Positions 6,913 to 20,819 of a stretch of DNA of 64,000 bases are shown piece after piece. The notes below the pieces were generated by a model. That model had not been told where the DNA came from. It worked only from the letters and a program-made list of their open reading frames with translations, and did no database searches. Numbering within the stretch: position 1 is the first letter of the stretch; every line of letters starts with the position of its first letter. Origin of the DNA: a virus; the IMG/VR virus record IMGVR_UViG_3300036652_000269, positions 25,279-89,278 of that record. One strand, 5' to 3'. Both the position numbers and the translations under genes were made by a program.

Positions 6913-8262
6913 TTAGAACGTGCCGACGACGAAGGACTCCGGACGCTTGACGGCGAGGGCAATACGCTCTTCGACCAGCACCGCGATGGCGTTGCGGACG
7001 AAGAAGTCGGCGTGCTGCTCTGCGATCCGGACGTTGGCCTGCTCGCGGTCGTAGACCTGAGCGCCCAGACCGAACGCACCGGTAAGCCAGGTGCCTTCGT
7101 TCATGGCCGGGGTCTCAACAACGGGCTGACGCCAGACCTGCGCCTGGGCACCGATGGCGATGTTGGTGAACAGCATGTACTGGCCGTCACCGCCGTTGGT
7201 CGTGGTGCCCTTCTGAAGCTCGATGTCCTCCCAGTCGAACGGGTGGAGCACGAAGCCGGTGCCGGGGTAGTTGGCGATGACCGACAACGTGGCCGACCGG
7301 CGAAGGGCGTCCGACTTCAGGTCCCCGGCTGCACGGGTGTAGACCTGCACGCCAGGCGTGTTCAGCAGACCCAGCAGGTTGTTGCCGGTGCCGTCACCGT
7401 TGAGCAGCTGGTCGTCCTCTTCGAGCGCGAGGCCGTACAGCAACTCGTTGTTGATGATGGACTGCAACTGCGGCACGTCGCTGATGACGTTGCGGTGGGC
7501 CGCTTCCCAGTGCGCGATGGTGCGGACCGGGGCCTGCGCAGTGTCGAACTGAAGGCTGGACTTCGGCTTGGGGCCGAAGACAGCGACCGAGTTCTCGACG
7601 GCACGGTCAGCGACGGCCTGGGCGTTGCCGTTGCCGTTGTTCTCCGCGAACCCGATGACCCGGAAGAAGTCGATCAGGTTGGCCGACGTGGTGGCGACCG
7701 GGAAGAGGTCACGCACCCGGTAGGTGCGCTGGCCACGCGGGACGATGGGGTCGAACTGGATCGGGCCCCAGCCCTGCGGGTTCACCGTGTCCGGGACCAT
7801 CTGCCCGAACACGTCCTTGGTGCCGTAGCCACCGTTGCCGATGATCCGGCCGTCGATGTCGAACGGAGCGTCCATGCTGGTTTTGCCGGCCTTGACCATG
7901 GCGTTGAACTGCTCGGACTCGGTGAACATCTGGCCGAACGACTTGCGCTGCTGCGGGACGTACAGCCGCTGTGACTGGGTACCGGCACTGGAAGCAGCTG
8001 CGGCCATGGCAGCACTGAAGCCCTCGGGCTCGGCACCGTACTTCTTGACTTCTTCGGTCAGCCGCTTCATGGCGATGAGCGACTTGATCTCCGTGCACTT
8101 GTCGTACGCGGCCTTGATCTGGTCGGCAGTGTCGCGGGAAAGCTCGACGTTCGCGCCATCGACCTTGACGCCCTTCGCCATGCCTTCTTCCACGATCTTC
8201 GCGTTCTGGGTCAGCGCGGACTCAAGGTCCTTGACGCTGATGTCAGCGAGGTCGGTGCTCAC
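6913..8262 (-). CDS. Major capsid protein, HK97 fold
   Basis: 449 aa; VRTIAHW, L..EEDDQLLNGDGTG, F.RNAIAVLVEERIALAVKRPESF; N-terminal delta-like helical domain. Confidence 0.95.
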   Translation of the reverse strand: MSTDLADISVKDLESALTQNAKIVEEGMAKGVKVDGANVELSRDTADQIKAAYDKCTEIKSLIAMKRLTEEVKKYGAEPEGFSAAMAAAASSAGTQSQRLYVPQQRKSFGQMFTESEQFNAMVKAGKTSMDAPFDIDGRIIGNGGYGTKDVFGQMVPDTVNPQGWGPIQFDPIVPRGQRTYRVRDLFPVATTSANLIDFFRVIGFAENNGNGNAQAVADRAVENSVAVFGPKPKSSLQFDTAQAPVRTIAHWEAAHRNVISDVPQLQSIINNELLYGLALEEDDQLLNGDGTGNNLLGLLNTPGVQVYTRAAGDLKSDALRRSATLSVIANYPGTGFVLHPFDWEDIELQKGTTTNGGDGQYMLFTNIAIGAQAQVWRQPVVETPAMNEGTWLTGAFGLGAQVYDREQANVRIAEQHADFFVRNAIAVLVEERIALAVKRPESFVVGTF

Positions 8263-8377: not shown

Positions 8378-10540
8378 CTATTCCAACGACACACCCAACG
8401 AGGCCAGGTCGAAGGACTTGGTGTCGATGACAACCCGATCCGACTTGCCTTCGGTGTCATCGTCGCTGCCGCCGTCCATCCAGTCTTCGGGCAGCTTGCT
8501 TGTCAGATTGAGATCTTTGGCGCGCTTGATGATGAACTGCTTGGCAGCTTCTTCGTCACTGGCACGACCGATGGACTGGATGGCGTTGTCCAGGTCGTCT
8601 TCGTTCTCGATGGGGAAGCTGAAGCTGCCGTCCGGGTTCTTCAGGGCGTGACCCTGCTTGCCCAGTTCTTCCCGCTTGGCAGTCGTGAACTGCCGCTTGA
8701 TCTGGTAATCGATGTCGTAGTCCTTGACGGCCACTGTGTTCTCCCATGCCTTCGAGTCGGGAACCTTGTGCATGGCCTCCATGCGGGCCACGAAGTCAGC
8801 ACTGCTTTGCTTGATGGTGTTTGTCTTTCCGATACGTGCGATCCGCCGCTTCTTGTCCACGTTCCGGGCCTGACGCATCGCGGCCCAGTGCTGCGATCCC
8901 TGGTGTCGCATCGATGCGTAGATGTGTGCACTGTTCGGGTGCAACGTGGACACGTCCAACGTCTGCTTGGGAGTGAGCTTCAGCACGCCGTAGTTAATGC
9001 CCTGGGTCGGGTGCCCGACCAGACGCCCGTACTTGGCCACACCGGCTTCGGTACGCACCATGGCTTTCGATTCGACAACCATGTTGGGCGACCACGACTT
9101 GGCCGATTCACCGGACATGTCAATGTCACCACCCGACTCGCCTGCCTCGGGGTCCTGGTTGTCGTCCGCCTGGTCGATGGCCTTGGCGATGGCCTGTGCC
9201 ACACCCTTCAGGGCATCACTGCCGTCACCGGTTGCGCTGTCGATAGCCGCGTCGATGGCGTCCAGGATGTTGTCTGCCGCCTTTTCGATGGCTTCGGGGT
9301 CGTCACCGATGATGGCGTGGTCGAAGTTCTGTGCCATCGGTGCCAGCTGGTGCAGGACGTCGGGTTCGATGTCATCTTGATACCCGTCAAGCACCTGCAC
9401 GATGCTGACCGGCTCGTTGTCAGCCGATTCGTCGTCGTCCCCGGTGCCACTGTCTGCGCTGTCCGCTTCCCCGGCCTTTTCACGAGCATCGTTGCTGGCG
9501 TCTTCCAGCGGGTCACGCGGCTGCGGTGGCGGGTTGAAAGGGTTGGACGGCATCGGCAACGATGACCCACCCGTAGGGCCAGCAGGGGCAGCCTTTTCGC
9601 TGATGGTGTCTTCGTTCATCGGGTCCTTGGGCCCGTTCGGGTTCTTGCGAGGCTCTTCACCCGTCATCGCGTACAGCAGTTCCCCGATGGCGTCCTGCAC
9701 CTTGCGCACCAGGTCCAGGTTGGACGCACTGATGCTGAACACGCCATCACCCTGCGGGTACTCGTCCGGGGTTTCCAACGCCTTGTGTTCGCTGTCGTCT
9801 TCGTCATCGAACAGTTCGCCGTCTTCGTCGCCTTCCCCTTCGCCGGTCCCGTCATCGTCGTCCGTGATGTCGGTACCTTCGTGGGTCTCGGCTTCGTCTT
9901 CGGCTTCGTCGTCGTCAGTGTCGTCGGGCACCTTGGTGGCCGACATCGCTTTGACTTCCTGCATGAAGGCATCGGGAGTGGTCCCGAAGAAGTCCTTGAA
10001 CTGGACCCAGGCTTCCTGTGCCGACTTCACCGATTCGGTACGGGCAGCTGACATGGCACCGAACAGCACCGGGCTGTACTCGAACAGGTCGAGGTAGTCG
10101 ATGGTACGGATGCCCTTTTCCTGGGTGGCCCCACCGACCGGGACGTTGTAGCCGATGGACCACTCCTGCTGGTCCCCGAAGAACTTCACGTCTTCGTAGG
10201 CTTCCCGGCCCCGCTGTGTGTTCAGGTTGAACTGCATCTTGACCTGAAGGGCACCGGCAGCCTTGGGCCACGGTGAACCATCCGGCAGAGTCGTTGGCAG
10301 TGCAGGATCGCCAGGCATCAGTTCCTTGATTTCCAAGGTCTTACTGATGCTCTTCTCCCACGAGTGGTGCCAGACGCCCTTGGGAATGCGCTTCTGCAAC
10401 GTCTTGGTGTACGCACCAGGCTTGATGATGTCGGACACGTTGTCCACGATGCCTGTCACACTGACAAGCGCAGTGACCACACCCGCGCCGTCGTCTGCTT
10501 TGACGCCGGTAACACCTACCGACTTGTACTGAAGCTCCAT
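8378..10540 (-). CDS. HK97-family prohead (capsid maturation) protease with long acidic/scaffold-like extension
   Basis: SVTGIVDNVSDII.PGAY, WHH, EWSIGY, LFEYSPVLFGA catalytic motifs in the first ~170 aa; C-terminal GHALKNPDGSFSFPIEN...LPEDW module. Confidence 0.9.
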   Translation of the reverse strand: MELQYKSVGVTGVKADDGAGVVTALVSVTGIVDNVSDIIKPGAYTKTLQKRIPKGVWHHSWEKSISKTLEIKELMPGDPALPTTLPDGSPWPKAAGALQVKMQFNLNTQRGREAYEDVKFFGDQQEWSIGYNVPVGGATQEKGIRTIDYLDLFEYSPVLFGAMSAARTESVKSAQEAWVQFKDFFGTTPDAFMQEVKAMSATKVPDDTDDDEAEDEAETHEGTDITDDDDGTGEGEGDEDGELFDDEDDSEHKALETPDEYPQGDGVFSISASNLDLVRKVQDAIGELLYAMTGEEPRKNPNGPKDPMNEDTISEKAAPAGPTGGSSLPMPSNPFNPPPQPRDPLEDASNDAREKAGEADSADSGTGDDDESADNEPVSIVQVLDGYQDDIEPDVLHQLAPMAQNFDHAIIGDDPEAIEKAADNILDAIDAAIDSATGDGSDALKGVAQAIAKAIDQADDNQDPEAGESGGDIDMSGESAKSWSPNMVVESKAMVRTEAGVAKYGRLVGHPTQGINYGVLKLTPKQTLDVSTLHPNSAHIYASMRHQGSQHWAAMRQARNVDKKRRIARIGKTNTIKQSSADFVARMEAMHKVPDSKAWENTVAVKDYDIDYQIKRQFTTAKREELGKQGHALKNPDGSFSFPIENEDDLDNAIQSIGRASDEEAAKQFIIKRAKDLNLTSKLPEDWMDGGSDDDTEGKSDRVVIDTKSFDLASLGVSLE

Positions 10541-10597: not shown

Positions 10598-12709
10598 TCA
10601 ATGGCCCGAAGCGGCCCGAAGGACCGCAGCGGTGTGTTGGTCGAGACTGCCTGTCACTGGTAATCCTGCTTCCCGCTGAACTGTCGAAATGCCAGCTTGC
10701 CCTTCCGGCAACCCAAGGTTCTGCATCGCCTGGTGTGCCTGCGCCACTTGTGCAGGAGACAGTTGTACAGCCGCGGGCTTGGTGGTTCCGGCTGGCTTCT
10801 GGCCACCCGTGGTGTAGGTGAACTTCCCGCCGACCCGTGGGTGCTTGGACGGGTCCCAACCTGCTCCGCTGGGGCCGGTGTTGCTGGCGTTCGGGTCAGC
10901 GTGGTTGGGATCGCCACCCGGCTGCTTGGCTAGTTCTGCCTGCGCTTGGTTGAAGGCGGTCGTGGGGTCGGACGATGCCAACGCAGTGCTACCTGTCTTC
11001 CCGACACCCTTGCCCTTACCGGTAGCCGTCTTCTTGGGGGCCGCAGTCCTACGGCTGCCACTGCTGCCACCACGGGCCGCTGCTCGGTGGGTACCACCGT
11101 GCCCGGCATGGGACGACGACCCCTTGGGCGGGGCTACTGCTGCCGGTGCCTTGCTACCCGACCACGCCTTGCTGTCTTTCTGAACGAAGTCACGCACGCC
11201 TACTACCTCGTCACGCCCCACCTTGTCCTTGGCCCAGTCCACGTGGTCGTCGCACACCGGAACCTGGGCCATCCCTTCTGCCCAGAGCACACCTTTGGTC
11301 GCGGGCTTTGAACAGTCGGGGTTCTTGCAGTGGTAGGTCTTGGTGGCGATGTAGTCAGCACGCTGCATCACGTAGGACTTGATGTCTGCGTAGTCACGAA
11401 CGACTTTCCGTTCGATACCCGGTTCGAACGACTTGCCTCCCGCACGCTGGTTCAACTTGCGCATGACGGCATCACGGGATGCACCTTCGTGCAACACGTA
11501 GTCATGCTGGTCGGTGGCCACCCACTTGTTCGGGGTTTCCGCACCCACGTAGTAGACGTTGTTGTCCGCCCCCTTGTACTTCTCGAAGTTGTCGTATTCC
11601 GACCGCAGCTTGTTCAGGTTTTCGTACGTACCCGCTGGCTTCTTGGCACCGACACGCACCGTCCGTTCCTTCGCACGTTGCAATGCAGCCTGGCGTGCCT
11701 CATCACGACGGGCAGCAGCAGCTGTCCGTTCGACAACCGGGGGTTTGTGGTTCGCCTGCCGGTCGGCATCGGCAGCGTTTGCTGCATCACGCCGTGCACG
11801 TTGCTTCGCAATCTCAACAGCAGCGCGCATCTTTTCGGACGCCGACGTGTCCACCGAAAGGTTTGGCACGCCGTAATACTGCCGCTGTTCATTCCACAAC
11901 GTCGGTGTCATGTCATGCAGGTGTTGTTCAGCTTCCGCTACCTTGCCCTGAGACATCGCGTGGACGGCAGCTTCGATGTGCTTCTGTACTTCGGGGTGTT
12001 TGATAGCCGGAGTCTTTTCATGGTGTTGCAGACCCGCAACCAAACTATTGGCGACGCTTTCATCGTCTTCGAAGTACCCATCATGGATGATGTGCTTGTC
12101 CCCGTTGAGCGCAGTGAACTCGTACTTGGTGTGCTGCGCTGGGTTAGACACCGTTGTGATGGTCGATCCGATGTCGGCACCATGGCGACGGGCACCAGCT
12201 TCGGTAGCCACCCGCCTAACGTGTGAACCTCCGGATGCCCTACTTCCCCGTACGCCAGTGATGTGCCCCTGGGTGTAAGTGGTTCCGTGTTCGTTAGACC
12301 CGAGCATCCGACCAGACGTACCGATGGTCCATCGTCCGTGTTCATCGCGGACTTCGTTGATATTGAAGATTTTCTGTTCGACAGGTGCATCGAACGCTTT
12401 GCCCGACGTACCCTTCATTGCCTCCCACTGGGCCAGTGCGGCCTGTGCCTTAGCCACCGTGTCGGGGTGCACCTTGTCACCACCACGAGCCCACCGCTTG
12501 ATGGCACCGATGGCCAGTTCGATGGCGTTGCTTTCGTCCGCGTGCCCGGTCCGGATCAGGGCATGGGCTATCTCCCTGACATACGGGGGCAGGCCACCAC
12601 GGCGGGTGACCCAGTTGTCCCCCGTGCCCAGGGGTGACGTGTCATGGGGACCGCCAACCACCTTGAACTCTGCGAGAAGTTCTAGCTCGTTGTCAGTCAG
12701 CATGTTCAA
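10598..12709 (-). CDS. Multidomain head-associated protein (tagged polyprotein; Zn-finger, C-terminal PG-binding-like domain)
   Basis: 703 aa mosaic; EQKIFNINEVRDEHGRW tag; C-x4-C...C-x2-H; QREAGLPVTGSLDQHT. Confidence 0.65.
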   Translation of the reverse strand: MNMLTDNELELLAEFKVVGGPHDTSPLGTGDNWVTRRGGLPPYVREIAHALIRTGHADESNAIELAIGAIKRWARGGDKVHPDTVAKAQAALAQWEAMKGTSGKAFDAPVEQKIFNINEVRDEHGRWTIGTSGRMLGSNEHGTTYTQGHITGVRGSRASGGSHVRRVATEAGARRHGADIGSTITTVSNPAQHTKYEFTALNGDKHIIHDGYFEDDESVANSLVAGLQHHEKTPAIKHPEVQKHIEAAVHAMSQGKVAEAEQHLHDMTPTLWNEQRQYYGVPNLSVDTSASEKMRAAVEIAKQRARRDAANAADADRQANHKPPVVERTAAAARRDEARQAALQRAKERTVRVGAKKPAGTYENLNKLRSEYDNFEKYKGADNNVYYVGAETPNKWVATDQHDYVLHEGASRDAVMRKLNQRAGGKSFEPGIERKVVRDYADIKSYVMQRADYIATKTYHCKNPDCSKPATKGVLWAEGMAQVPVCDDHVDWAKDKVGRDEVVGVRDFVQKDSKAWSGSKAPAAVAPPKGSSSHAGHGGTHRAAARGGSSGSRRTAAPKKTATGKGKGVGKTGSTALASSDPTTAFNQAQAELAKQPGGDPNHADPNASNTGPSGAGWDPSKHPRVGGKFTYTTGGQKPAGTTKPAAVQLSPAQVAQAHQAMQNLGLPEGQAGISTVQREAGLPVTGSLDQHTAAVLRAASGH

Positions 12710-12960
12710 CCAACCTTCATGGGCGTGATGGTGTCAGGTTCGACTTGACGGCTCTTGCCTGTTGGCGTCGTCACCCAGTATTGCGTGTAAGCGCCGAACG
12801 GGGTGTCAACATGTGAAGTCGTCAACGTGCCGAGGATGCCAAGCTCATCACCCAGCGGTTCGTCCGGCCCATCTGGTGCATAGACAGCGCCCGGTACATC
12901 GTGGCGTCCATCGAAGTTGTACAGCTTGGCCCGCACCATCGTGCCGTCGTCGGGAATCAT
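12706..12960 (-). CDS. Hypothetical protein
   Basis: 84 aa, GAGGT RBS, coupled to neighbours. Confidence 0.55.
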   Translation of the reverse strand: MIPDDGTMVRAKLYNFDGRHDVPGAVYAPDGPDEPLGDELGILGTLTTSHVDTPFGAYTQYWVTTPTGKSRQVEPDTITPMKVG

Positions 12961-12962
12961 GG

Positions 12963-14789
12963 TTACCTCTTCTGGGGTGGGCCCATGATGCCGGGTGGCA
13001 CGGGCTTCGGGAACGCTACACGTTGGCTGGCAGTGGCACCTCGTTCAGTACCACGCTTTGGCTTTGTCTTCAAGACAGACGCGATAAAAGCAGGCGTATA
13101 CCACGCTGGCTTGGCCGCCTTCAGTCCTGTGCCTTCGTGCATCGGCTTGTCAGAACGAAGTTTGTTGCACCCAGAACACGCCGGGACGATGTTGTTGGTT
13201 CGGTACTTGCCACCCAGGTTGGTGGTGATGATCTTGTCTTGCTCAAACATCGGTAACTTGCCCTTGTTGTGCCACGACATCTTGCACCCGCAATAGACAC
13301 AGGGCACGTAACCCTTGTCCTTGCCCTTGGCGTCCACCCCACCGAACTCGACATAGACCGCCCAGTTGCGATTGTCCCGGTCCAGGTTGTTTCCACGCAG
13401 GTTGCGGAAGGCTTCACCGCCAGCAGCGATTCGTGCCTTGTTGTCAGCTATCTCGATAGGCGTCGGCTGCGGGATAGCTTTGGCCTTGGCAATAGCTTGC
13501 TTCTGCGCTCGCTTCAGTTCGGCGTTGGACACATGTTCGTGCACCACGTCCTTTTCGCTGCGGTGTACCCCAGTGCCTGTCGTTTCGATATGCGTGTACT
13601 TGGTCTTGCCCAATGCAGATCGAGCGGCCCCAAACGCCGACCACCTACCATGGTCATCGCGTAGTTCGGCAGGATCGAACTTCTTACCTTCTTGTGTTTC
13701 GACAATCGGACCGTGGTAGCCGTACTCACTGATGGAGTTGCCATCGGTGTACAGATGCTTGGCCTTGACTGTCGCACTGATAACCGGCAGGTCTTTTTCC
13801 GGGTCAGTGGGGTGCAGCCCGTGTTGCCGGGCGTAGGCAGGGTGTACAGCAACCCAGTCACCAGGGTTGATCTGTCGGACTCCATGCGGGACGGACCGAT
13901 AGATGGTGACATCGGCTTCCGGGTTGCCACGAACCTGTTGTGCTACCTGCATCCCGTACGGGTCGTGTGCCTCGTCGTGGATGTAGAAATGCGGGTTGGT
14001 ATAGACGTCGTCTGGATAGACGCCGTTCTGCGTCAGGTCATGGATCGGGGCATCGTTCTTGTTCGGTGCTGTATGTAGCCCCCGATAGTCGGTGGTTTCC
14101 TGCTTCAGTACCTCGTACGCCTTGCGATACGGGTCCAGTGACGGATCGTTGTCGCCTTCGATCCATTGATATTCCGACATGGGGTCACTGGACTGCTTCA
14201 TGTAGTCGTAAGCCGAGTGCCATGGTTCGTGGATGGCCACGATCTGGCTGGGCTTCACGTCGCCTTTCATGATGACATGGTGGTGACCCTGTTGCCACTC
14301 ATCCAACAACTGGTTACCGGCCAATGACGACTGCGGGTGTTCGGCCCGCTGGCTGATTTCGTCAGGGTGGGCGTGGAACTCGACTACCGCACGCTTGGCG
14401 TGGGCATCCATTTTGGGCATGTATGAAGATGCCCAGACACCTGCTGACGGTTCGTTCCCTGCCCCTAGACCACCATCACCATGAGCATGGCTTTCCAACA
14501 ACCCATGTTGCCTTATCGAATCGACATTTTCGGTAGACGTGTAGTGGAACAGCCTGACGTGCCCTGCCGGGATCGCAGCCCACCGGCCATGCAGGCCACG
14601 GGCTTCGGCAGGGTCGAAAACCTTGGCCTCTAGACGGGCTGTACGGCCCGCTGCCGGGTCAATGGGCTGCCAGACGGGTGCTGGCCCAGCCAGCCCACCC
14701 AAAGCCTTCAGAAAGACGTTCAGCGCAGCTTTGACCTGGACCTCCTGGGCACGAGCCCTGATCCGGTCGCTGATGATCACTTGACCCAC
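12963..14789 (-). CDS. Multidomain protein: two ADP-ribosyltransferase-like domains + HNH nuclease
   Basis: LFHYTSTENVDSIRQHGL; VTIYRSVP..INPGDWV..YARQHG..GNSISEYGY; CVYCG...D.I....GG....NIVPACSGCN; two copies of the tag motif. Confidence 0.65.
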   Translation of the reverse strand: MGQVIISDRIRARAQEVQVKAALNVFLKALGGLAGPAPVWQPIDPAAGRTARLEAKVFDPAEARGLHGRWAAIPAGHVRLFHYTSTENVDSIRQHGLLESHAHGDGGLGAGNEPSAGVWASSYMPKMDAHAKRAVVEFHAHPDEISQRAEHPQSSLAGNQLLDEWQQGHHHVIMKGDVKPSQIVAIHEPWHSAYDYMKQSSDPMSEYQWIEGDNDPSLDPYRKAYEVLKQETTDYRGLHTAPNKNDAPIHDLTQNGVYPDDVYTNPHFYIHDEAHDPYGMQVAQQVRGNPEADVTIYRSVPHGVRQINPGDWVAVHPAYARQHGLHPTDPEKDLPVISATVKAKHLYTDGNSISEYGYHGPIVETQEGKKFDPAELRDDHGRWSAFGAARSALGKTKYTHIETTGTGVHRSEKDVVHEHVSNAELKRAQKQAIAKAKAIPQPTPIEIADNKARIAAGGEAFRNLRGNNLDRDNRNWAVYVEFGGVDAKGKDKGYVPCVYCGCKMSWHNKGKLPMFEQDKIITTNLGGKYRTNNIVPACSGCNKLRSDKPMHEGTGLKAAKPAWYTPAFIASVLKTKPKRGTERGATASQRVAFPKPVPPGIMGPPQKR

Positions 14790-17179
14790 CGTCCGTCGTT
14801 TCGCAGGTATCGAAGTTCCAGTTGCCGGTACGTGTGGTCAGGAAGGATGTCGAAGTATAAAACCATCGGCACCACGAAGGGGAACTTCCCCGCGATGTCG
14901 GCTTCGGTAGCACCCACGAGTACAAGCAGCTTGGTTCGTGTGTCGATGGTACCGGCAGCACCAGCTTCGGTTGCGGACCCGATGGTGATGCTGACGCTGC
15001 GGGTCAACACTCCCGCTGTCCCGGTTTCTGTCACTGTGCCAAACGTGGGCAGCAGCTTCGTCCGGGATAGCGTCTGGGCAGCACCTGTCTCAGTGACAGT
15101 TCCCAGGGTCAATGTCTTGGACTGACCGAACGATCCCGCCTGCCCCGATTCCACGACGCCGGTCAATATCAGGGTCTTGGCCCGCTGCCCCAGGGCGTGG
15201 GCGACATCTGCCTCGGTGGCGACACTGAAGCTAGCCAACTTGCTTCGTGACAAGGTGCCGGTTGCATCGGCTTCACTGGTACCGGTGAAACTAAGTTTCT
15301 TGGCCCGTGTCAGACCTCCGGCGATGCCGGACTCGGTAGCTGTACCAATGACAAGCGATCCGGTCAGTACAAACGTGCCGGTGGTGTCTACTTCCGATGC
15401 AGTCCCCAGGGTCAACGCTGCCCGTCCGACGACAAGACTTCCGGCAGTGTCTGTCTCGCTGGCAGTCCCGATGCCTAAGGTCTTCGTCCGGACGAACGTG
15501 CCTGCTGTTTCGACATCGTTGTCCGTGGCAAGTGTCAGTGCCTTGCTGCGAGTTGTGAAGGCCATCGCGGCACCTGCTTCGGTAGCAGTACCGAAACCAG
15601 CCGACTTCGCACGGATGAACGTTCCTGTCGTGCCCAGGTTGCTGACCGTACCCAGGGTCAACGACTTCGAGTGCGTGAAGGCACCGGTCGTACCGATGTT
15701 GGTGACAGTGGCCAGCCCGATTGTCTTCGCACGACTAAAGGTGCCAGCAATACCGGTGTTGGTGGCCGTCCCCAAGGTCAGTGACTTTGTGCGAGTGAAA
15801 GTGCCAGCTGTACCCGTGTTGGTGGCTGTCCCGATAGTGGTGGTGTGTGAAACGCCACCGGGCAGCGGAATGGCCCATACCGTTGCTGTGCCACCGCTAA
15901 CCGTGCCGTTGAGTGTGATCGAGTTATCGGCTGGAGTGACACCGGACGGCAGCAACTTGACGTACAGCGCACCGTAGATTGCACCGTTGGCCGTTCCGGC
16001 TCCAGAAACACCAGACGCGATCTGTGCCCAGCCATCTGGCAGGGTGGTTGCGTCAGTTGCGCCAGCACCCGCGTCTATCATCATGACAAGCAAACGGTTT
16101 ACGGCCGATGCTGGCAATGTCGAAATGGTGTACGCGAGTGCTGCCCCGCCACCAGAGTGCTTGAACGTCTTCGACCATGCTGTCGAAGCGTCTGCACCAG
16201 CTAGTTTCGCAGTGATCCACAACCATGCTCGGCTAGCGGTGGTGTGTGCAGCCCAGAAGTTCGTGTTCGACGTGTCGTTTGTGCCGTTGAACAACCACGA
16301 CGAAAACGTGGTTGATGTGGCTTGTTCGAAGTCGAACTCTGCCCAGTTGCCCGAGCCAGCCGATCCGTTGTAGCCCAATGTGATGCTGGAACTCGATGCA
16401 CTGGCATTACCGGCACCGGCGACTAGCACAGTGTTGCCATTCACCACCCCAGTTGGGGCAGTTAGTGTCCGGTCAGTTGCCGTCGCAGCATCGTTGGTGA
16501 CGACAGGACCATCAAGCTCTGGCCAGGACCCTTGCACTAGGTTGTAGCAGAAAGCTGCGATCTGCGTGTACGTCGGGCACGTCCACATGCCTGTCGGTGA
16601 GACAGTCCCTGCGGTTGCAACATTCGTGTGCGCCGCTTCGGACGTGTACATGGTTCCGGAAGTCTGGTTGTTGACGCCATCGTCAGTCCAGCCAGAACCA
16701 CCAGCCGCAAGAGTGGGTGACGTGGACGAACGACAGGTGATCGCGTTCACCATGACGCAGTTGTCAACAGCACTAGTCGCAACCGCACCAGCAGGGGTAG
16801 CTGAGCCACCGTTATACGAATACGTTCCGGACAGGCCTCCGTACGTGATCGGGGTCCATGTCCCCGACCATTCGGCAACCCGCCACAGCATCCCTGTGCC
16901 GGACGCGCCGACGTTGCCGAACGTCACAGTCGTCGTAGACAGAGCGTTTTGGCACATCCACAGTTCGAACGTGTACGTGTTGACCGGCTTCCAAACCAGT
17001 TTCCATGTGTTACCCGCGTTGTCGGTCACTGTGTTGGCTGCTGAGTTGCCACCGCCCCAATGGACAGAAGCGATCAGTGTGTTGCCAGCCGTTGTTGCGG
17101 TCGCAAAAGAAACAGTCGAGTTACCAGTGGCCCCAGACTGCTTCTTGCCTAGCGCGACCTGAACTGGGCTGTCGCTCAT
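14777..17179 (-). CDS. Thr/Gly/Ala-rich fibre-like virion protein with ~16 x 20-aa repeats
   Basis: 800 aa; N-terminal beta-sandwich-like domains, then repeats such as TLGTATNTGIAGTFSRAKTI. Confidence 0.6.
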   Translation of the reverse strand: MSDSPVQVALGKKQSGATGNSTVSFATATTAGNTLIASVHWGGGNSAANTVTDNAGNTWKLVWKPVNTYTFELWMCQNALSTTTVTFGNVGASGTGMLWRVAEWSGTWTPITYGGLSGTYSYNGGSATPAGAVATSAVDNCVMVNAITCRSSTSPTLAAGGSGWTDDGVNNQTSGTMYTSEAAHTNVATAGTVSPTGMWTCPTYTQIAAFCYNLVQGSWPELDGPVVTNDAATATDRTLTAPTGVVNGNTVLVAGAGNASASSSSITLGYNGSAGSGNWAEFDFEQATSTTFSSWLFNGTNDTSNTNFWAAHTTASRAWLWITAKLAGADASTAWSKTFKHSGGGAALAYTISTLPASAVNRLLVMMIDAGAGATDATTLPDGWAQIASGVSGAGTANGAIYGALYVKLLPSGVTPADNSITLNGTVSGGTATVWAIPLPGGVSHTTTIGTATNTGTAGTFTRTKSLTLGTATNTGIAGTFSRAKTIGLATVTNIGTTGAFTHSKSLTLGTVSNLGTTGTFIRAKSAGFGTATEAGAAMAFTTRSKALTLATDNDVETAGTFVRTKTLGIGTASETDTAGSLVVGRAALTLGTASEVDTTGTFVLTGSLVIGTATESGIAGGLTRAKKLSFTGTSEADATGTLSRSKLASFSVATEADVAHALGQRAKTLILTGVVESGQAGSFGQSKTLTLGTVTETGAAQTLSRTKLLPTFGTVTETGTAGVLTRSVSITIGSATEAGAAGTIDTRTKLLVLVGATEADIAGKFPFVVPMVLYFDILPDHTYRQLELRYLRNDGRWVK
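14880..15840 (-). repeat. ~60-bp degenerate coding tandem repeat (about 16 units)
   Basis: Protein consensus [TG]-[LIF]-G-T-[AV]-T-[EN]-x-G-x-A-G-x-[FL]-x-R-x-K-x-L. Confidence 0.75.
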
Positions 17180-17199
17180 CAGTTACCCCAGACCATGAA

Positions 17200-17245
17200 C
17201 ACACCCGTGCCTGTACGGGCTATCAGCCTGACAGACACGGGTGTG
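17200..17245 (-). terminator. Stem-loop
   Basis: CACACCCGTGCCTGT...ACAGACACGGGTGTG inverted repeat. Confidence 0.55.
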
Positions 17246-17273
17246 ACCTCTTTCAGAACGTCAGGGGTGCGAA

Positions 17274-17726
17274 CTACGCCGCGAAGAATCCGCCAGCCGG
17301 GCAGTTGATGGTCTGCGTGGTGCCGTCCGTGGTGAAGGGCGCATCGTGAGCGGTCAACGGGATGATGTTCGAATCGGTACCGCCCGTGGTGTCGTTGTCG
17401 TAGCAGACCAGCAGCTTCACGACGGAGTTGTTGATCGCCCCACCCGCGTTGGTGTAAGTCAGCGGGTCGAATGTCACCTTGACAGTGTTTGCAGTGTTGT
17501 CCACCGTCACCACGACGTTCGCGGGATCGAGCCGGGTGTAGTTCGTGAAGGTGGCTTCGGTGTTGCCAGCCGCCGCAATCAGGGTGGCCAGGTCGGTGTA
17601 GTTGTTCAGCGTGTCGTCTGCCTCGGCTGCCTGAAGCAGCACGACGACCAATGCGTCGTTGGTGGCAGGTAGCCCGGCGTAATAGGCCACCTTGCCCTTG
17701 GCACCGTTGAAAACAAAGCTGCCCAT
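17274..17726 (-). CDS. Putative virion structural protein
   Basis: 150 aa, MGSFVFNGAKG...EATFTNYTR; followed by a stem-loop, as for abundant proteins. Confidence 0.55.
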   Translation of the reverse strand: MGSFVFNGAKGKVAYYAGLPATNDALVVVLLQAAEADDTLNNYTDLATLIAAAGNTEATFTNYTRLDPANVVVTVDNTANTVKVTFDPLTYTNAGGAINNSVVKLLVCYDNDTTGGTDSNIIPLTAHDAPFTTDGTTQTINCPAGGFFAA

Positions 17727-17769
17727 CGGGGTCTGCTCACTTTCTCGTTTCGATAGTTGGGTCTGCTGG

Positions 17770-18234
17770 CTAGGCCGTCTGTGGCTTCAGCCATAGGTCG
17801 ATACCGGGGATTGCATCGGCCGGTGGTGGTGGACTGCCCCGCCACTGGACAACTCGGGTTGGATCGTTGGTGATGCTGGCCCTGGTCGGGTAGGTGCCGT
17901 TGCTGTCCGGTACCACGGTCACCGGCACCTGTGGTGGCAGGTCGTCCACCGTGTAGCTGGCGTTGGTTCCCGGAGCACCCTTCAAGGATGCCAGCCAGTC
18001 GTCTTCGTTGCCCTGAAAACCACGGGCCACGGCCAGTTCGTACGGGCTGGCTCCTTGTGGGCCCTGTCCACCCGCATCACCCTTGGTACCCTTCAGCGAT
18101 GCCAGGAAGTCGGCCTGGGTACCGGTGTTCCCTGCTGCCAGCCAGAGTTCATAGGCAGACTGCCCTGGCTGACCGATCTTCAGCGGGATGACGGGGTTGG
18201 TCGGTGCCCCCGAAAAGGTGATCTGCGTGGTCAT
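17770..18234 (-). CDS. Collagen-like fibre protein
   Basis: Two S[AP]YEL...G..G..(D)[FW]LASLKG repeats with G-x-x triplets. Confidence 0.6.
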   Translation of the reverse strand: MTTQITFSGAPTNPVIPLKIGQPGQSAYELWLAAGNTGTQADFLASLKGTKGDAGGQGPQGASPYELAVARGFQGNEDDWLASLKGAPGTNASYTVDDLPPQVPVTVVPDSNGTYPTRASITNDPTRVVQWRGSPPPPADAIPGIDLWLKPQTA

Positions 18235-18240
18235 CGTGGT

Positions 18241-18615
18241 TCACGCTTTCTTCAGGTAGACAGTGCCGAACAACAGGTCGGCGTTCCCGTCCGTGGCACT
18301 GGTGATGGCCAAGCCCCAGGACGAACACTGCACTCCGATTGTCTGGACGACAGACTTCGGCAACTTCAGCAACACGTCACCTTCGGCCAGGCCGTCCGGA
18401 TTCCCGACCGCAGACATGTCACTGAAGTATTGCGACAGATCGAGGATGATGTCCGGTGACCCGCTGGACAGCTTGATTTTCGAAACGAAAGTGTACGGCG
18501 TCACGTCGAACGGCTGCCCGTTGACCACGATGTTCCACTTGCCCCAGAAGTCGGTGGACTCGTCCAGGTACAGGTCGAACTTCTGGGCGTCAATGATGCT
18601 GCTGTTGACGATCAC
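18241..18615 (-). CDS. Hypothetical Ig-like fibre adaptor
   Basis: 124 aa beta-rich, upstream of the collagen-like gene. Confidence 0.45.
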   Translation of the reverse strand: MIVNSSIIDAQKFDLYLDESTDFWGKWNIVVNGQPFDVTPYTFVSKIKLSSGSPDIILDLSQYFSDMSAVGNPDGLAEGDVLLKLPKSVVQTIGVQCSSWGLAITSATDGNADLLFGTVYLKKA

Positions 18616-20111
18616 GTCAGACTCCCTCGATGGGCACGGTCAACGGCTTCCTGCACTTCATCTTTCGACAGCTTGCGACGACGCTGGGGCTTCCCGGACA
18701 ACGGGGCCACCACTATGGGGAGTTGTCCGGACGGCATCCCGGATGGGCTGATGGGTCCGCCACCGAATACGTCCTTGAAGTCGTCCCCGTCCGCACTACC
18801 ACCGCCCGCACCATCGATCCAGCCGTCACTGCCGAAGCTGATGCCACCATCGGCCCCACCACTGGGTTCGAGGTCGTCACCTTCCGACGAGTAGCTGCTG
18901 TCGTTGCAGTAGGTGCCCAGCGGCTGTTCTTGTCCGCAGATCAAACAGCGAGGGTGCCCGTTCGGGTGTGTCCATGCGGCCGGGGTGAAAGCGTGCTTGC
19001 CCTTCGCCTTTGCGGTCTGCTTGTTCTTCTTGATGAGTTCGGTTTCCTCGTCCGCCGTGATCCCGGTCTGGGCGGACATCGCGGATGACAGGTCCTTGTG
19101 CCGCCTGTCTTCTTGATAACCAAGTTGGGCAATCCGCTTACGGCGTTCCTCGCGCTGGTGTTCCAGGAACTGGCCTGCCGTCATAGCCGGGGTGCCAGCG
19201 GCCCTGTAGCGGTCGCTGCGGCCCTGGGGCTTCTTGCTGGCCACTTCCATGGCACGTTCGATCTGGGCAGCCCAGCGACCACCACGGCCACGTGGCTCGG
19301 CGGGGTTGAACGACTTGTCTTCCGTCGTTTGCCCGAAAGGGATGTCCACCCGGTTCGAGCCATGTACGACCGACAGATGGCTGAAGGTCACCTGCCGAGG
19401 TTGCCACCTGTTGATCGGCTGGTCGTCGGTCGGGTCCAGGTAGGCCAAGGTCATGTGCGGGGAATAGCCGTGACTACTGACTGGCTCGTATTTTCTGTCT
19501 GTCAGAAAGGCTTGGGTGACAACCTGTCGCAACCGTTCGACTTCCGGCGCATCGACGTTGACCACCAGCGGGTCCTGGCCACCTTCGTCAGAATCCTCAC
19601 CACTGAACCGGGTGATGCCGTTCAGCTTCGCAGTGATCGGGGCGAACTGGGAAGCGACTTTCTTCCCGATATTCACCAACTCTTTCTGGGTTCCGGCCAC
19701 ATCGCTGCCGACCTTGCCCAGATACAGCACCGTGCAGTGCAGGTCGTCGGGGTACAGCCCGTCCGGTAGAGCGATCTGTTGGGCATCGCCGGGACTGGGG
19801 TGCAGGGCTACCATGACGCCGGTCGAATAGTCCGGGCCAGGTGCCAGCTTCTTGGATTCCGTCTGCCAGATAGCAGCGGCTTCACGCATCAGGTCAGCGG
19901 AGAGGTTCTTGGCTTGCAGACAGTAGGCGGCAGCACCCAGCATGTCTGTCTTCATGATAGTTGCGACCTGCGACACTTTGGTCGCGTCGCTGCCGTCTGG
20001 CAGTTCGACAGGCAGCTGCTTGATCTGGCCTGCCTCGGGACGGGCTAGGCGGTCCTGCAATGCGGCCAGCATCCCCAGCATCTTGGCCGACACACGGATC
20101 GAGCCCGGCAC
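18612..20111 (-). CDS. 2H phosphoesterase (2'-5' RNA ligase/Acb1-like) domain protein
   Basis: GVMVAL...DLHCTVLYLG...YSPHMTLAY, i.e. two H-x-T motifs; followed by EDKSFNPAEPRGRGGRW tag. Confidence 0.8.
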   Translation of the reverse strand: MPGSIRVSAKMLGMLAALQDRLARPEAGQIKQLPVELPDGSDATKVSQVATIMKTDMLGAAAYCLQAKNLSADLMREAAAIWQTESKKLAPGPDYSTGVMVALHPSPGDAQQIALPDGLYPDDLHCTVLYLGKVGSDVAGTQKELVNIGKKVASQFAPITAKLNGITRFSGEDSDEGGQDPLVVNVDAPEVERLRQVVTQAFLTDRKYEPVSSHGYSPHMTLAYLDPTDDQPINRWQPRQVTFSHLSVVHGSNRVDIPFGQTTEDKSFNPAEPRGRGGRWAAQIERAMEVASKKPQGRSDRYRAAGTPAMTAGQFLEHQREERRKRIAQLGYQEDRRHKDLSSAMSAQTGITADEETELIKKNKQTAKAKGKHAFTPAAWTHPNGHPRCLICGQEQPLGTYCNDSSYSSEGDDLEPSGGADGGISFGSDGWIDGAGGGSADGDDFKDVFGGGPISPSGMPSGQLPIVVAPLSGKPQRRRKLSKDEVQEAVDRAHRGSLT

Positions 20112-20202: not shown

Positions 20203-20691
20203 TCAGGTGTAGATGAACGAAGCCGCGTCGGTGACGTTGCCCGCGTCGTCCTGAACGATCACGTCGTACGTGCCCGCAGTCTTCGCCGGGGTCGTGACGT
20301 GGATGGTCTCGTCGTTGACGACCGAGAACGACGTGCCAGCGGTGCCACCGAAGGTGACGCCGGACGCACCGTCGAACCCGGTGCCCCTGATGACGATGGC
20401 CGTGCCACCCGCAGCCGCACCCGTGGCCGGGGTCAGCGAGGTGATGGTCGCGGCACTGTAGTTGCTGTAGAAGAAGTCGCGTTCGGAAGTGCGGATGTTG
20501 GTACCCGCCTTCCACTTCAGACGACGGCCGGTCTCACCCGATTCTCCGACCATCTTGAAGTGCTCGTACACGTCTTCCGTCAGGGTCAGCAACGGATCGG
20601 GGTCGCTGTACCCGGTGGACGGAAACGATGCCTTGGGGATCGTGGTGCCCGATGCGTCGGTCAACCACCGGTCTCCGGTGTCGGTGCCCAT
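20203..20691 (-). CDS. IPT/TIG (Ig-like) domain protein
   Basis: ITSLTPATGAAAGGTAIVIRGTGF...VTFGG...I.VTTP; start MGTDTG with AAGGAAGG RBS. Confidence 0.8.
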   Translation of the reverse strand: MGTDTGDRWLTDASGTTIPKASFPSTGYSDPDPLLTLTEDVYEHFKMVGESGETGRRLKWKAGTNIRTSERDFFYSNYSAATITSLTPATGAAAGGTAIVIRGTGFDGASGVTFGGTAGTSFSVVNDETIHVTTPAKTAGTYDVIVQDDAGNVTDAASFIYT

Positions 20692-20819
20692 GTCTTTACC
20701 TTCCTTGTCGAACGGTGGGTGTGGTACGGACGGGTCTCTTAGAAGCATAGGGCTTCATCTGGCGGAACATACAGAAGCCCAAAACTTCGGGGTGTCCATC
20801 TGTCAGCTAGACAGTCTGG

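What the first reader, a model, noticed from the sequence alone, without database searches (positions are those of the whole stretch)
10598..20111. Candidate capsid-cargo system: effector polyproteins marked by a shared 17-residue cleavage/targeting tag
Seen: four copies with identical spacing in three otherwise unrelated genes between portal and protease: EQKIFNINEVRDEHGRW (12329-12379), EGKKFDPAELRDDHGRW (13641-13691), EAKVFDPAEARGLHGRW (14580-14630) and EDKSFNPAEPRGRGGRW (19272-19322). A variant, WDPSKHPRVGGKF, lies at ~10820-10858. Consensus: E-x-K-x-F-[DN]-x-x-E-x-R-x-x-x-G-R-W. Each copy sits at a domain boundary, next to ART-like, HNH, 2H or PG-binding modules. The DNA is diverged, so conservation is at protein level. 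A second motif (RRVATEAGARRHGADIG ~12170-12220; VRTEAGVAKYGRLVG in the protease) is also shared. Known: T4 internal proteins use a capsid-targeting sequence removed by the head protease, and MuF/polyvalent proteins carry conflict domains. Inference: E-x-K is the prohead-protease cut, leaving F[DN]P..E.R...GRW as a new N-terminus that acts as a packaging or ejection address. This would be a modular way to deliver anti-defence enzymes with the genome.
Basis: partly seen in the sequence, partly recalled or inferred. Interest (0 to 1): 0.9.

Follow-up and report, generated by a model that had tools for sequence, protein, structure and literature searches.

The report
Header tag on phage head cargo
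Three head-assembly genes of this 89-kb phage mark the start of each enzyme module with the same ~20-residue peptide, which also heads effector modules in over a thousand families of giant phage proteins and which I could not find described, so it may be the signal for separating or handling proteins a phage carries in its head.

Summary
Observation confirmed. Four copies of E-x-K-x-F-[DN]-x-x-E-x-R-x-x-x-G-R-W (0 expected by chance) and one HPR..GKF variant lie on the minus strand. They sit in three head-module genes between a portal-MuF fusion and an S78 prohead protease. Each abuts a globular module: 2H, two ART-like folds, HNH.

The core, F-[DN]-P-x-E-P-R-D-x-x-G-R-W-T-x-G-G, is not peculiar to this phage. 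It occurs in at least 118 viral contigs and 1,348 protein clusters, with up to 10 copies per giant "polyvalent" protein, usually beside or fused to portals. Modules are shuffled at this point. The motif often starts proteins and never ends them. Its upstream flank (usually Lys at -1/-2) is constant within a protein but differs between proteins, as a cognate protease site would.

Cleavage and capsid addressing remain untested. The tag also precedes toxin domains in bacterial toxin-immunity loci without head genes, so "capsid address" cannot be its whole role.

I found no description in the searchable literature. This scan met the same tag in four other genomes. Verdict: first reading partly supported; a new variant of a known kind (phage polyvalent proteins).

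The parts
21180..23612 (-). Portal protein fused to a C-terminal MuF domain (810 aa). It marks the upstream end of the cargo block.
   Evidence: Pfam Phage_portal 3.1e-33 (res 58-363) and Phage_Mu_F (res 697-802); phrog_2662 1.1e-75.
18612..20111 (-). 499-aa cargo protein: N-terminal part, 2H phosphoesterase, tag, then an unannotated C-terminal module of ~220 aa.
19365..19769 (-). 2H / LigT-like phosphoesterase domain (res 115-249).
   Evidence: Pfam 2_5_RNA_ligase2 6.5e-10, 39.7 bits against cut-off 27. Two H-x-T motifs (HCT, HMT) are visible in the translation.
19272..19322 (-). GRW-type header tag, copy 4: EDKSFNPAEPRGRGGRW (res 264-280).
12963..14789 (-). 608-aa mosaic cargo protein: N-terminal helix, tag, module A, module B, tag, HNH region.
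   Evidence: Homologues each cover only 19-28% of it. AlphaFold model.
14580..14630 (-). GRW-type header tag, copy 3: EAKVFDPAEARGLHGRW (res 54-70), directly in front of module A.
   Evidence: pLDDT below 50. Homologue P0003 has WDEADHPRGADGKF at the same junction.
14091..14579 (-). Module A (res 71-233): ADP-ribosyltransferase-like fold of DarT/KptA type.
   Evidence: pLDDT 75-91. VIA-align: KptA Z 7.7 (rmsd 3.6, 80 aligned), TreX Z 7.7, DarT Z 5.5-6.3. Foldseek top hits are DarT1 and Tpt1 (prob 0.98) but none reaches E<=1e-3.
13692..14090 (-). Module B (res 234-366; phrog_2579 'ParB C-terminal domain'): a small, possibly ART-like fold.
   Evidence: phrog_2579 1.1e-37. Folded alone: pLDDT 82.5, pTM 0.80. 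Best Z is 5.4; nearly all of the 66 chains with Z>=2 are ART folds.
13641..13691 (-). GRW-type header tag, copy 2: EGKKFDPAELRDDHGRW (res 367-383), between module B and the HNH region.
   Evidence: Lies in a low-pLDDT linker.
12981..13559 (-). HNH-type nuclease region (res 411-603). The usual D-H reads D-K.
   Evidence: Pfam HNH 22.4 bits against cut-off 21.4 (res 497-547); phrog_960 3.7e-29. This segment clusters with the segment downstream of the tag in L119.
10598..12709 (-). 703-aa cargo protein with three tags (GRW, VRT-like, HPR..GKF).
12380..12709 (-). N-terminal module (res 1-110). In another phage the same module is fused behind the S78 prohead protease domain.
   Evidence: BLASTP to L069:2-2380:- res 493-608: 44% identity, E 4e-22. 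The alignment ends at the tag.
12329..12379 (-). GRW-type header tag, copy 1: EQKIFNINEVRDEHGRW (res 111-127; Ile replaces the usual Pro).
12167..12205 (-). Degenerate VRT-type tag: ATEAGARRHGADIG.
   Evidence: Family defined.
10820..10858 (-). HPR..GKF variant of the header tag: WDPSKHPRVGGKF (res 618-630), in front of the C-terminal module.
   Evidence: Shown to be the same family by positional equivalence in P0003 and by hybrids such as LHPRDSHGRW.
10619..10696 (-). Possible peptidoglycan-binding helices (res 672-697).
   Evidence: Pfam PG_binding_1 E 0.0036, 17.9 bits, below the cut-off of 23. Weak.
8378..10540 (-). 720-aa prohead protease: S78 domain, long acidic linker, and a C-terminal part of 227 aa.
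   Evidence: Pfam Peptidase_S78 5.4e-11; phrog_80 1e-27.
9014..9052 (-). VRT-type tag inside the protease: (VESKAM)VRTEAGVAKYGRLVG, preceded by E-x-K.
6913..8262 (-). HK97-fold major capsid protein. It marks the downstream end of the module.
   Evidence: Pfam Phage_capsid 1.9e-39.

Best explanation
The repeated peptide is a module header tag: a conserved linear motif of about 20 residues, K/x-x-[FY]-[DN]-P-x-E-P-R-[DG]-x-x-G-[RK]-[WF]-T-x-G-G. It marks the N-terminal boundary of each effector module in phage head-associated 'polyvalent' proteins.

In this phage it heads four modules (five with the HPR..GKF variant) in three genes between the portal-MuF fusion and the S78 prohead protease.

Most likely mechanism:
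1. The multi-module proteins are made with the head proteins and taken into the procapsid through non-tag parts. One candidate is the N-terminal module of the 703-aa protein, which in another phage is fused behind the prohead protease domain.
2. A protease then cuts just upstream of each tag. In this phage that would be after the Lys of E-x-K, and the S78 prohead protease is the candidate.
3. This releases separate enzymes that begin x-F-[DN]-P...GRW followed by a flexible linker.
4. The retained tag serves a common handling step. I cannot yet tell whether that step is recognition by the protease, retention in the head, or exit with the DNA.

Shown:
- The tag is real, selected at the protein level, widespread and head-module associated.
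- It is the junction at which modules assort.
- It is polar: it heads modules and never trails them.
- Its flanks are specific to each protein.

Inferred: cleavage (about 45%), packaging in the virion (about 70% for these three proteins, by context), and the tag acting as an address (about 30%).
For: Reality in the window: 4 copies against 0.00 expected, restricted to three head genes in the 89-kb genome, with diverged DNA.

Generality:
- The back-translated pattern hits at least 118 viral contig stretches. All 131 hits are in frame in long ORFs and show extra unsearched conservation: D after R in 97/115, T after W in 69/115, then G-G.
- A profile search of 1.84 billion representatives gives 1,348 proteins at E<=1e-3 and 168 at E<=1e-10, with up to 10 copies per protein.

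Protein class: tag-bearing proteins include portals of five Pfam families, MuF, an S78 protease, ARTs, ART-PolyVal, Acb1, InPase and HNH.

Context: neighbours in 26 viral loci are dominated by portals (12 hits), terminases, capsid and MuF. S78 protease genes lie just downstream of tagged genes in three loci, as in this window.

Junction behaviour:
- Homology blocks between proteins start inside a tag in 33% of cases (5% at random) and end inside a tag in 30% (5.6% at random).
- The same downstream module follows different upstream modules.
- Median spacing between tags is 233 aa.

Polarity: the first copy is within 30 aa of the N-terminus in 50/147 proteins. The last copy is within 30 aa of the C-terminus in 0/147.

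Signature resembling a protease site:
- Within-protein identity of the flank residues is 0.50 and 0.37, against 0.19 and 0.12 in shuffles.
- Lys is concentrated at -1 (0.35) and -2 (0.28) from the aromatic residue. In naturally N-terminal copies the start Met sits at -2 or -3 and is followed by A, T or V.

Structure: both tags of the 608-aa protein lie in low-confidence linkers directly beside confident globular modules.

Anchoring: residues 6-128 of the 703-aa protein match the segment behind the S78 domain in L069 (E 4e-22), and the match ends at the tag.

Published framework: polyvalent proteins are predicted to be packaged, injected and separated by peptidases (PMC5512222). 2H and ART domains fused to MuF or portal are predicted to be head-packaged (PMC9503650).
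Against: - There are no experimental data: no virion proteomics, N-terminal sequence or structure for any tag-bearing protein. No PDB chain matches the tag profile.
- The tag also precedes Tox-REase-5, M23 and lysozyme-like domains in alphaproteobacterial proteins. Their neighbours are ordinary chromosomal genes plus Imm52, not head genes. The role cannot be capsid-specific.
- Gordonia phage FlyingTortilla has the same layout (portal, 2H, ART, large protein) without the tag. The tag is therefore not required for this kind of cargo.
- Flank type shows no association with a built-in HExxH peptidase (Fisher p 0.82), and 94/149 multi-copy proteins have no HExxH. The protease remains unidentified.
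- Constant flanks within a protein could also come from structural constraint rather than protease specificity.
- E-x-K is not enriched in the cargo proteins apart from the tag sites.
Confidence: 0.55

Rival explanations
1. The S78 prohead protease cuts at E-x-K, and the exposed F[DN]P..E.R...GRW N-terminus is itself the packaging or ejection address, working like the T4 capsid targeting sequence.
For: - Head-module context.
- The tag heads modules and is often naturally N-terminal.
- Lys at -2 is in the same register as start Mets.
- E-x-K precedes all four copies and also the VRT tag in the protease.
- An N-terminal signal is sufficient for packaging in P1 (PMC9024508).
- T4 internal proteins share a conserved targeting sequence (PMC3012670).
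Against: - An address exposed only after cleavage inside the procapsid cannot be what brought the protein there. In T4 the targeting sequence is at the N-terminus of the precursor and is removed.
- The first module of each of the three window proteins has no tag.
- The tag occurs in bacterial toxin-immunity loci without head genes.
- The Glu of E-x-K is not conserved in the family.
Confidence: 0.3
2. The tag is a 'cut here' signal used after delivery, not a head signal. A built-in zincin metallopeptidase, or a conserved protease of the target cell, recognises the invariant core and frees the effector domains in the recipient cytoplasm. This would apply both to phage polyvalent proteins and to bacterial polymorphic toxins.
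For: - One explanation covers both contexts: phage heads and bacterial toxin loci.
- HExxH is enriched in multi-copy proteins, 55/149 against 10 in shuffled sequences.
- Iyer et al. propose separation of the domains by in-built peptidases, possibly after injection (PMC5512222).
- The near-invariant core across phyla fits a universal partner.
Against: - 94/149 multi-copy proteins lack HExxH, and no zincin peptidase domain was recognised in the three window proteins. Their only HExxH is HEPWH, inside the ART-like module A.
- There is no link between flank type and HExxH.
- Protein-specific flanks argue for a cognate protease rather than a universal one.
Confidence: 0.25
3. The tag is a passive, well-tolerated linker cassette. 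It persists because module shuffling succeeds at it, and it has no partner or signal function.
For: Homology breakpoints pile up at the tag. It lies in predicted disordered linkers.
Against: - About 13 near-invariant residues are conserved across phyla, while the DNA is diverged and offers no long identical runs for homologous recombination.
- The strict N-terminal polarity and the conservation of protein-specific flanks are not expected of a neutral linker.
- A second, unrelated tag (VRT type) is used in the same way.
Confidence: 0.1
4. The tag cleaves itself at the Asp-Pro or Asn-Pro bond, which is acid-labile or prone to succinimide formation, without any protease.
For: [DN]-P follows the aromatic residue in most copies.
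Against: - One window copy reads N-I.
- Many library copies read S-P, S-E, D-E or G-P-P-D-E.
- The invariant part is E-P-R-D..G-R-W rather than [DN]-P.
Confidence: 0.05

Closest known systems
Phage-type polyvalent proteins (Iyer, Burroughs, Anand, de Souza, Aravind 2017, PMC5512222; also PMC9503650)
   Same: Several unrelated conflict or effector domains (ART, 2H, HNH, ParB-like and others) are strung in one polypeptide, encoded beside or fused to portal or MuF. They are predicted to be packaged, injected and separated by proteolysis. The top library hits with the tag carry ART-PolyVal, Acb1, MuF and HExxH peptidase modules.
   Different: The papers define the domains and propose in-built zincin peptidases. 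Text searches of them found no conserved separator or header peptide. The three window proteins have no recognisable zincin peptidase. The neighbouring protease is an S78 prohead protease.
T4 capsid targeting sequence (CTS) of internal proteins and Alt (PMC3012670, PMC9026906)
   Same: A short conserved peptide shared by otherwise diverse, injected anti-defence proteins. It is linked to processing by the prohead protease.
   Different: The T4 CTS sits at the extreme N-terminus of the precursor, targets the scaffolding core and is removed by gp21 (own knowledge for the last point). The tag here is mostly internal, repeats up to 10 times per chain, has no sequence similarity, and would be retained if the cut is upstream of it.
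P1 DarB N-terminal packaging signal (PMC9024508)
   Same: The N-terminal 30 residues of a giant, head-packaged anti-restriction protein suffice to load a reporter into capsids.
   Different: No consensus is shared among P1 Dar proteins. The tag here is a strict consensus shared across thousands of proteins and many phyla.
MuF polymorphic toxins of temperate phages (Jamet et al. 2017, PMC5576092; Zhang et al. 2012, PMC3482391)
   Same: A head-associated N-terminal domain is followed by variable C-terminal toxin domains. Some tag-bearing proteins contain MuF.
   Different: In the window, MuF is fused to the portal and not to the cargo proteins. Neither paper mentions a junction motif.
Junction motifs of polymorphic toxins such as VENN in CdiA or DPxGL in Rhs (own knowledge; framework in PMC3482391)
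   Same: A short conserved peptide demarcates the variable C-terminal toxin from the constant part. The alphaproteobacterial proteins found here show exactly this layout, with Tox-REase-5 next to Imm52.
   Different: Different sequence. The tag repeats within one chain, is shared between phage head proteins and bacterial toxins, and is not tied to a known secretion system.

Membership tests
Phage polyvalent proteins (Iyer et al. 2017) | Two or more unrelated effector or conflict domains in one polypeptide | tested here: met
   608-aa protein: ART-like module A, module B and HNH. 499-aa protein: 2H plus a C-terminal module. 703-aa protein: at least 3 segments.
Phage polyvalent proteins (Iyer et al. 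2017) | Encoded by a phage, next to or fused with head or packaging genes (portal, MuF) | tested here: met
   The genes lie between the portal-MuF fusion (21180-23612) and the S78 protease and capsid genes. The window is a virus record of 89 kb.
Phage polyvalent proteins (Iyer et al. 2017) | In-built zincin-like metallopeptidase (pervasive in the family but not universal) | tested here: inconclusive
   No peptidase family was hit in the three proteins. The only HExxH is HEPWH, inside the ART-like module A. 55/149 tag-bearing library proteins have HExxH.
Phage polyvalent proteins (Iyer et al. 2017) | Packaged in the virion and delivered with the DNA | not testable with these tools
   Needs virion proteomics. 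Related classes are detected in virions of AXL1 and phi24B.
T4-type capsid targeting sequence | Located at the extreme N-terminus of the precursor | tested here: not met
   In the window all five copies are internal (residues 54, 111, 264, 367, 618). Elsewhere about one third of first copies are N-terminal.
T4-type capsid targeting sequence | Sufficient to load a foreign protein into the capsid | not testable with these tools
   Needs a reporter fusion experiment.
MuF polymorphic toxins (Jamet et al. 2017) | N-terminal MuF domain in the same polypeptide as the toxin | tested here: not met
   MuF is found only on the portal protein (res 697-802). There is none in the three cargo proteins.
ADP-ribosyltransferase superfamily (module A, res 71-233 of the 608-aa protein) | ART fold | tested here: met
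   VIA-align: KptA Z 7.7 (rmsd 3.6, 80 aligned), TreX Z 7.7, DarT Z 5.5-6.3; 17 of the top 18 rows are ARTs. Foldseek top hits are DarT1 and Tpt1 (prob 0.98) but E>=0.07. Support is moderate only.
ADP-ribosyltransferase superfamily (module A) | Catalytic H-Y-E or R-S-E residues in place | tested here: inconclusive
   Conserved RLFHYT and HEPWH motifs are seen in homologues, but no residue-level superposition was made. Profile comparison with ART-PolyVal was negative.
ADP-ribosyltransferase superfamily (module B, res 234-366) | ART fold | tested here: inconclusive
   Best Z is 5.4 (CNFy domain; rmsd 4.0, 87 aligned). The list is dominated by ARTs, but all Z values are below 6 and Foldseek E>=0.3.
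2H phosphoesterase superfamily (499-aa protein) | Family profile match above the curated threshold, and two H-x-T motifs | tested here: met
   PF13563 39.7 bits (cut-off 27) and PF02834 24.2 bits (cut-off 23.3). HCT and HMT are present in the translation.
HNH endonuclease (608-aa protein, C-terminal region) | Profile match and catalytic His of the HNH motif | tested here: inconclusive
   PF01844 22.4 bits against cut-off 21.4; phrog_960 3.7e-29. The position that is usually D-H reads D-K (by eye), so activity is uncertain.

The most novel reading that the evidence does not exclude
Tailed phages of many lineages share a small set of interchangeable header tags: the GRW/HPR..GKF type and the unrelated VRT..G...[YF]G.PIG type. 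These would form a universal, modular system for cargo. Any enzyme placed behind a tag would be cut free by the head protease at a phage-specific site just upstream, held in the head and delivered with the DNA. Bacteria would have borrowed the same tag for polymorphic toxins. This would be a plug-and-play rule for loading proteins into capsids, comparable to a signal peptide.
Probability: 0.3. Interest if true: 0.85.

Novelty: new variant of a known kind. Interest (0 to 1): 0.68.

Why it matters
Phages are known to carry enzymes in their heads and inject them with the DNA to defeat host defences. How diverse cargo is selected, separated and delivered is understood only for T4 and, in part, for P1.

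A strictly conserved peptide that heads effector modules in more than a thousand protein families gives a concrete handle on that question. The same holds for a second tag used in the same way.

- **Testable:** it predicts exact N-termini that virion mass spectrometry can confirm or refute.
- **Annotation:** it gives a sequence rule for finding unannotated head cargo, including candidate anti-defence enzymes, in metagenomes.
- **Engineering:** if it works as a processing or loading signal, it could be used to load proteins into capsids.
- **Evolution:** its presence in bacterial toxin-immunity loci links phage cargo and polymorphic toxins.

Tried and rejected
- **Close relatives of this phage.** No orthologue-level test of the E-x-K flank was therefore possible.
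- **Short tblastn queries with the tag against annotated phages.** These gave only insignificant hits or none. tblastn of a giant multi-copy protein found only HNH matches. I could not name a cultured phage that carries the tag.
- **Curated libraries.** Pfam, NCBIfam, PHROGs and the PDB sequence profile search have no model or chain for the tag.
- **Literature.** Word searches for the motif returned only unrelated glucocorticoid-receptor papers. The polyvalent-protein, MuF-toxin, polymorphic-toxin and NAD-ADPr papers do not mention it.
- **First regex for the second motif.** It found nothing in 1.15 Mb. It was too strict; the form taken from P0002 and P0003 found 87 loci.
- **Profile-profile comparison of modules A and B with ART-PolyVal.** Negative, probability below 1% with shallow profiles. 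Only fold comparison pointed to ART.
- **Built-in metallopeptidase as the general protease.** Rejected as a general answer because there is no association with flank type.
- **Internal translation start at Met494 of the protease gene, directly in front of its VRT tag.** No convincing ribosome-binding site.
- **Tools unavailable.** The genomic context of the top library hits was not obtained. The search for related loci with P0017 and P0013 gave nothing useful.

Full report
**1. The observation.** The region is read on the minus strand. From 23612 down to 6913 it encodes:
- a portal protein fused to a MuF domain
- a TIG-domain protein
- a 499-aa protein with a 2H phosphoesterase domain
- two small proteins, one of them collagen or tail-fibre-like
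- an 800-aa repeat protein
- a 608-aa protein ending in an HNH region
- a 703-aa protein
- a 720-aa S78 prohead protease
- an HK97-fold capsid protein

The back-translated core matches four times in the window, against none in 100 dinucleotide-preserving shuffles. The window lies in a single 89,278-bp virus record, and the motif occurs nowhere else in it. The four DNA copies share 25-35 of 51 bases, have no identical run longer than 9 bases, and often use different codons for identical residues. Conservation is therefore at the protein level and is not due to recent duplication or gene conversion.

**2. Domain boundaries.** In the 499-aa protein the 2H domain ends at residue 249-261 and the tag is at 264-280. 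The 608-aa protein is a mosaic. Database relatives each share only 19-28% of it, either module A (about residues 71-233) or module B (about 229-367). An AlphaFold model gives confident globular modules at 71-233 and 271-362. Both tags (54-70 and 367-383) fall in low-confidence linkers directly beside them.

By fold, module A resembles ADP-ribosyltransferases of the DarT/KptA kind. VIA-align gives Z 7.7 for KptA and TreX and 5.5-6.3 for DarT. Foldseek lists the same families, but none reaches E<=0.001. Module B, folded alone (pLDDT 82.5), gives only weak matches (best Z 5.4), though nearly all of them are ART folds. Profile comparison with ART-PolyVal was negative. The 'PG-binding' call rests on a sub-threshold Pfam hit.

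**3. The tag is widespread.** All 131 hits are in frame in long ORFs. Positions left free in the pattern are conserved as well. The family consensus is F-[DN]-P-x-E-P-R-D-x-x-G-R-W-T-x-G-G.

A profile of 99 copies was searched against 1.84 billion cluster representatives. It found 1,348 proteins at E<=0.001 and 168 at E<=1e-10. These are mostly proteins with several copies, up to ten in chains of 1,400-3,800 residues.

The HPR..G[KR][FW] form is the same family. In relative P0003 it stands exactly where the window has the GRW form in front of module A, and hybrids such as LHPRDSHGRW exist.

**4. What carries it, and where.** Among 40 tag-bearing viral proteins, Pfam finds portals of five families, MuF, an S78 protease, several ARTs, InPase and a hydrolase; most have no hit. 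The top multi-copy proteins carry ART-PolyVal, Acb1, MuF, HNH, GNAT and several HExxH modules. These are the 'polyvalent proteins' of Iyer et al. 2017.

Neighbours of tagged genes in 26 viral loci are dominated by portals (12 hits), terminases, capsid and MuF. Where an S78 protease gene is present in the fetched contigs, it lies just downstream of the tagged genes, as in the window. In L069 the protease ORF continues into a module 44% identical (E 4e-22) to residues 6-128 of the window's 703-aa protein, and the match ends at a tag.

**5. Behaviour of the tag.**
- **Junction.** In 5,680 pairwise homology blocks among 273 proteins, 33% start inside a tag (5% at random) and 30% end inside one (5.6% at random). 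The same downstream module follows different upstream modules and the reverse also occurs. The window's HNH segment recurs in L119 behind an unrelated N-terminal part.
- **Spacing.** The median spacing between tags is 233 residues, which is one domain per segment.
- **Polarity.** The first copy is within 30 residues of the N-terminus in 50 of 147 proteins. No last copy is within 30 residues of the C-terminus.
- **Flanks.** The residues just upstream are nearly invariant among the copies of one protein but differ between proteins. Examples are K-[YF], D-A-F, K-[AS]-G-P, and E-x-K-x-F here. Within-protein identity is 0.50 and 0.37, against 0.19 and 0.12 in shuffles.
- **Register.** Family-wide, Lys is concentrated at -1 and -2 from the aromatic residue. 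In proteins that begin with the tag, the start Met sits at -2 or -3 and is followed by A, T or V. A cut after the Lys would thus give the same N-terminal register as the natural N-termini.

Together these features are what a cognate protease site in front of a retained header would look like. They are indirect evidence.

**6. What argues against a purely capsid role.** The same pattern in bacterial genomes finds many true copies (72 of 105 have the unsearched Asp), mostly in Alphaproteobacteria. A sub-family has a conserved N-terminal domain of about 100 residues, then the tag (LLKANFNPDEPRD..GRWT), then variable C-termini. These include Tox-REase-5, an M23 peptidase and a lysozyme-like module.

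The neighbours of these genes are ordinary chromosomal genes plus Imm52, the documented immunity partner of Tox-REase-5. No portal or terminase appears among the top families. In addition, Gordonia phage FlyingTortilla has the same cargo layout without the tag. HExxH peptidase modules are enriched in multi-copy proteins (55/149 against 10 in shuffled sequences). However, they are absent from most such proteins and are unrelated to flank type. The protease is therefore not identified.

A viral-contig scan found 87 loci with 84 unique in-frame copies. Of these, 55 lie within 100 residues of the ORF start, several at the head of proteins of 1,700-3,400 residues. One contig has four ORFs with it. 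The tagged proteins carry the same repertoire as GRW-tagged ones: portals, ARTs, 2H, PG_binding_1, Zeta toxin, MuF, ParB_N and HNH. The motif almost never shares an ORF with the GRW tag.

It is thus an alternative header tag. This phage uses both, one of them inside its protease, where it too is preceded by E-x-K.

**8. Comparison with what is known.** The concept is published: phage polyvalent proteins that are packaged, injected and separated by peptidases (PMC5512222), and 2H and ART domains fused to MuF or portal (PMC9503650). Polyvalent proteins are detected in virions of AXL1 and phi24B. T4 internal proteins share a capsid targeting sequence, and the first 30 residues of P1 DarB load a reporter into capsids.

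None of these papers mentions this peptide, as far as text searches show. No Pfam, NCBIfam or PHROG model and no PDB chain covers it.

Earlier reports of this scan described the same tag in four other genomes, with similar and equally untested readings. They are not independent evidence.

**9. Verdict.** 'Header tag of head-associated effector modules' is well supported. 'Cut after the Lys by the prohead protease' is plausible (about 45%). 'The tag is the packaging or ejection address' is weaker (about 30%) and cannot be the whole story, given the bacterial toxin loci. Virion N-terminomics would settle the first two points.

**10. Limits.** The look-up of encoding contigs and the protein Atlas were unavailable. 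No close relatives of the phage could be found.

Noticed in passing
window 14777-17179 (-): An 800-aa ORF sits among the cargo genes with no Pfam or PHROG hit. Its C-terminal half consists of about 17 imperfect protein repeats of ~20 residues (G-T-A-[TS]-x-x-G-x-A-G-x-[FL]-x-R-x-K-x-L-x-L). Tandem Repeats Finder sees no DNA repeat. It carries no tag, so it may be structural (decoration or fibre) rather than cargo.
   Followed up: partly
window 9014-9061 (-), protease residue 494: The VRT-type tag inside the 720-aa protease is directly preceded by a Met (…VESKA-M-VRTEAG…), as in proteins that start with this tag. An internal start would make a 227-aa scaffold-like product, as in lambda C/Nu3. 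The upstream DNA has only a partial 'GAAAG', so this is not supported.
   Followed up: partly
window, upstream of 8262, 10540 and 20111 (-): The capsid, protease and 499-aa genes share a similar upstream element containing the ribosome-binding site: CAGAAAGGACAGAC, CAGAAGGACAGGC and CGAAAGGACAGAC.
   Followed up: no
L121-L239 (bacterial genome contigs), e.g. L130:4613-5626, L147:2876-4105, L121:2230-4359: An alphaproteobacterial protein family, several paralogues per genome. It has a conserved N-terminal domain of ~100 aa unknown to Pfam, then the tag (LLKANFNPDEPRD..GRWT), then variable C-termini: Tox-REase-5 next to Imm52, M23 peptidase, and a lysozyme-like module. It looks like an undescribed polymorphic-effector family with no known secretion system within the 8-kb loci.
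   Followed up: partly
window 11240-11350 (-), 703-aa protein residues ~455-490; P0005 residues ~108-140: By eye, a Cys-rich module (C-x-x-C…PAT…LWAEGMA…P-x-C) is shared between the 703-aa protein and database protein P0005. In P0005 it precedes the ART-like module A.
   Followed up: no
window 8378-10540 (-), residues ~200-480: The protease has a very acidic, low-complexity linker of ~280 residues between the S78 domain and its C-terminal part. The three other S78 proteins found in tagged contigs are similarly long (606-793 aa).
   Followed up: no
window 17770-18234 and 20203-20748 (-): A collagen-like or tail-fibre-like 154-aa protein and a TIG/IPT-domain 181-aa protein are encoded inside the head module between portal and protease. 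Neither carries a tag.
   Followed up: no
L178, L188 (bacterial contigs); L088:6196-8586: Portal proteins whose C-terminal signature (…NEAR..LG…) is followed within ~30 residues by the tag and a further module. The tag thus also joins cargo directly to the portal's inward-facing C-terminus.
   Followed up: partly
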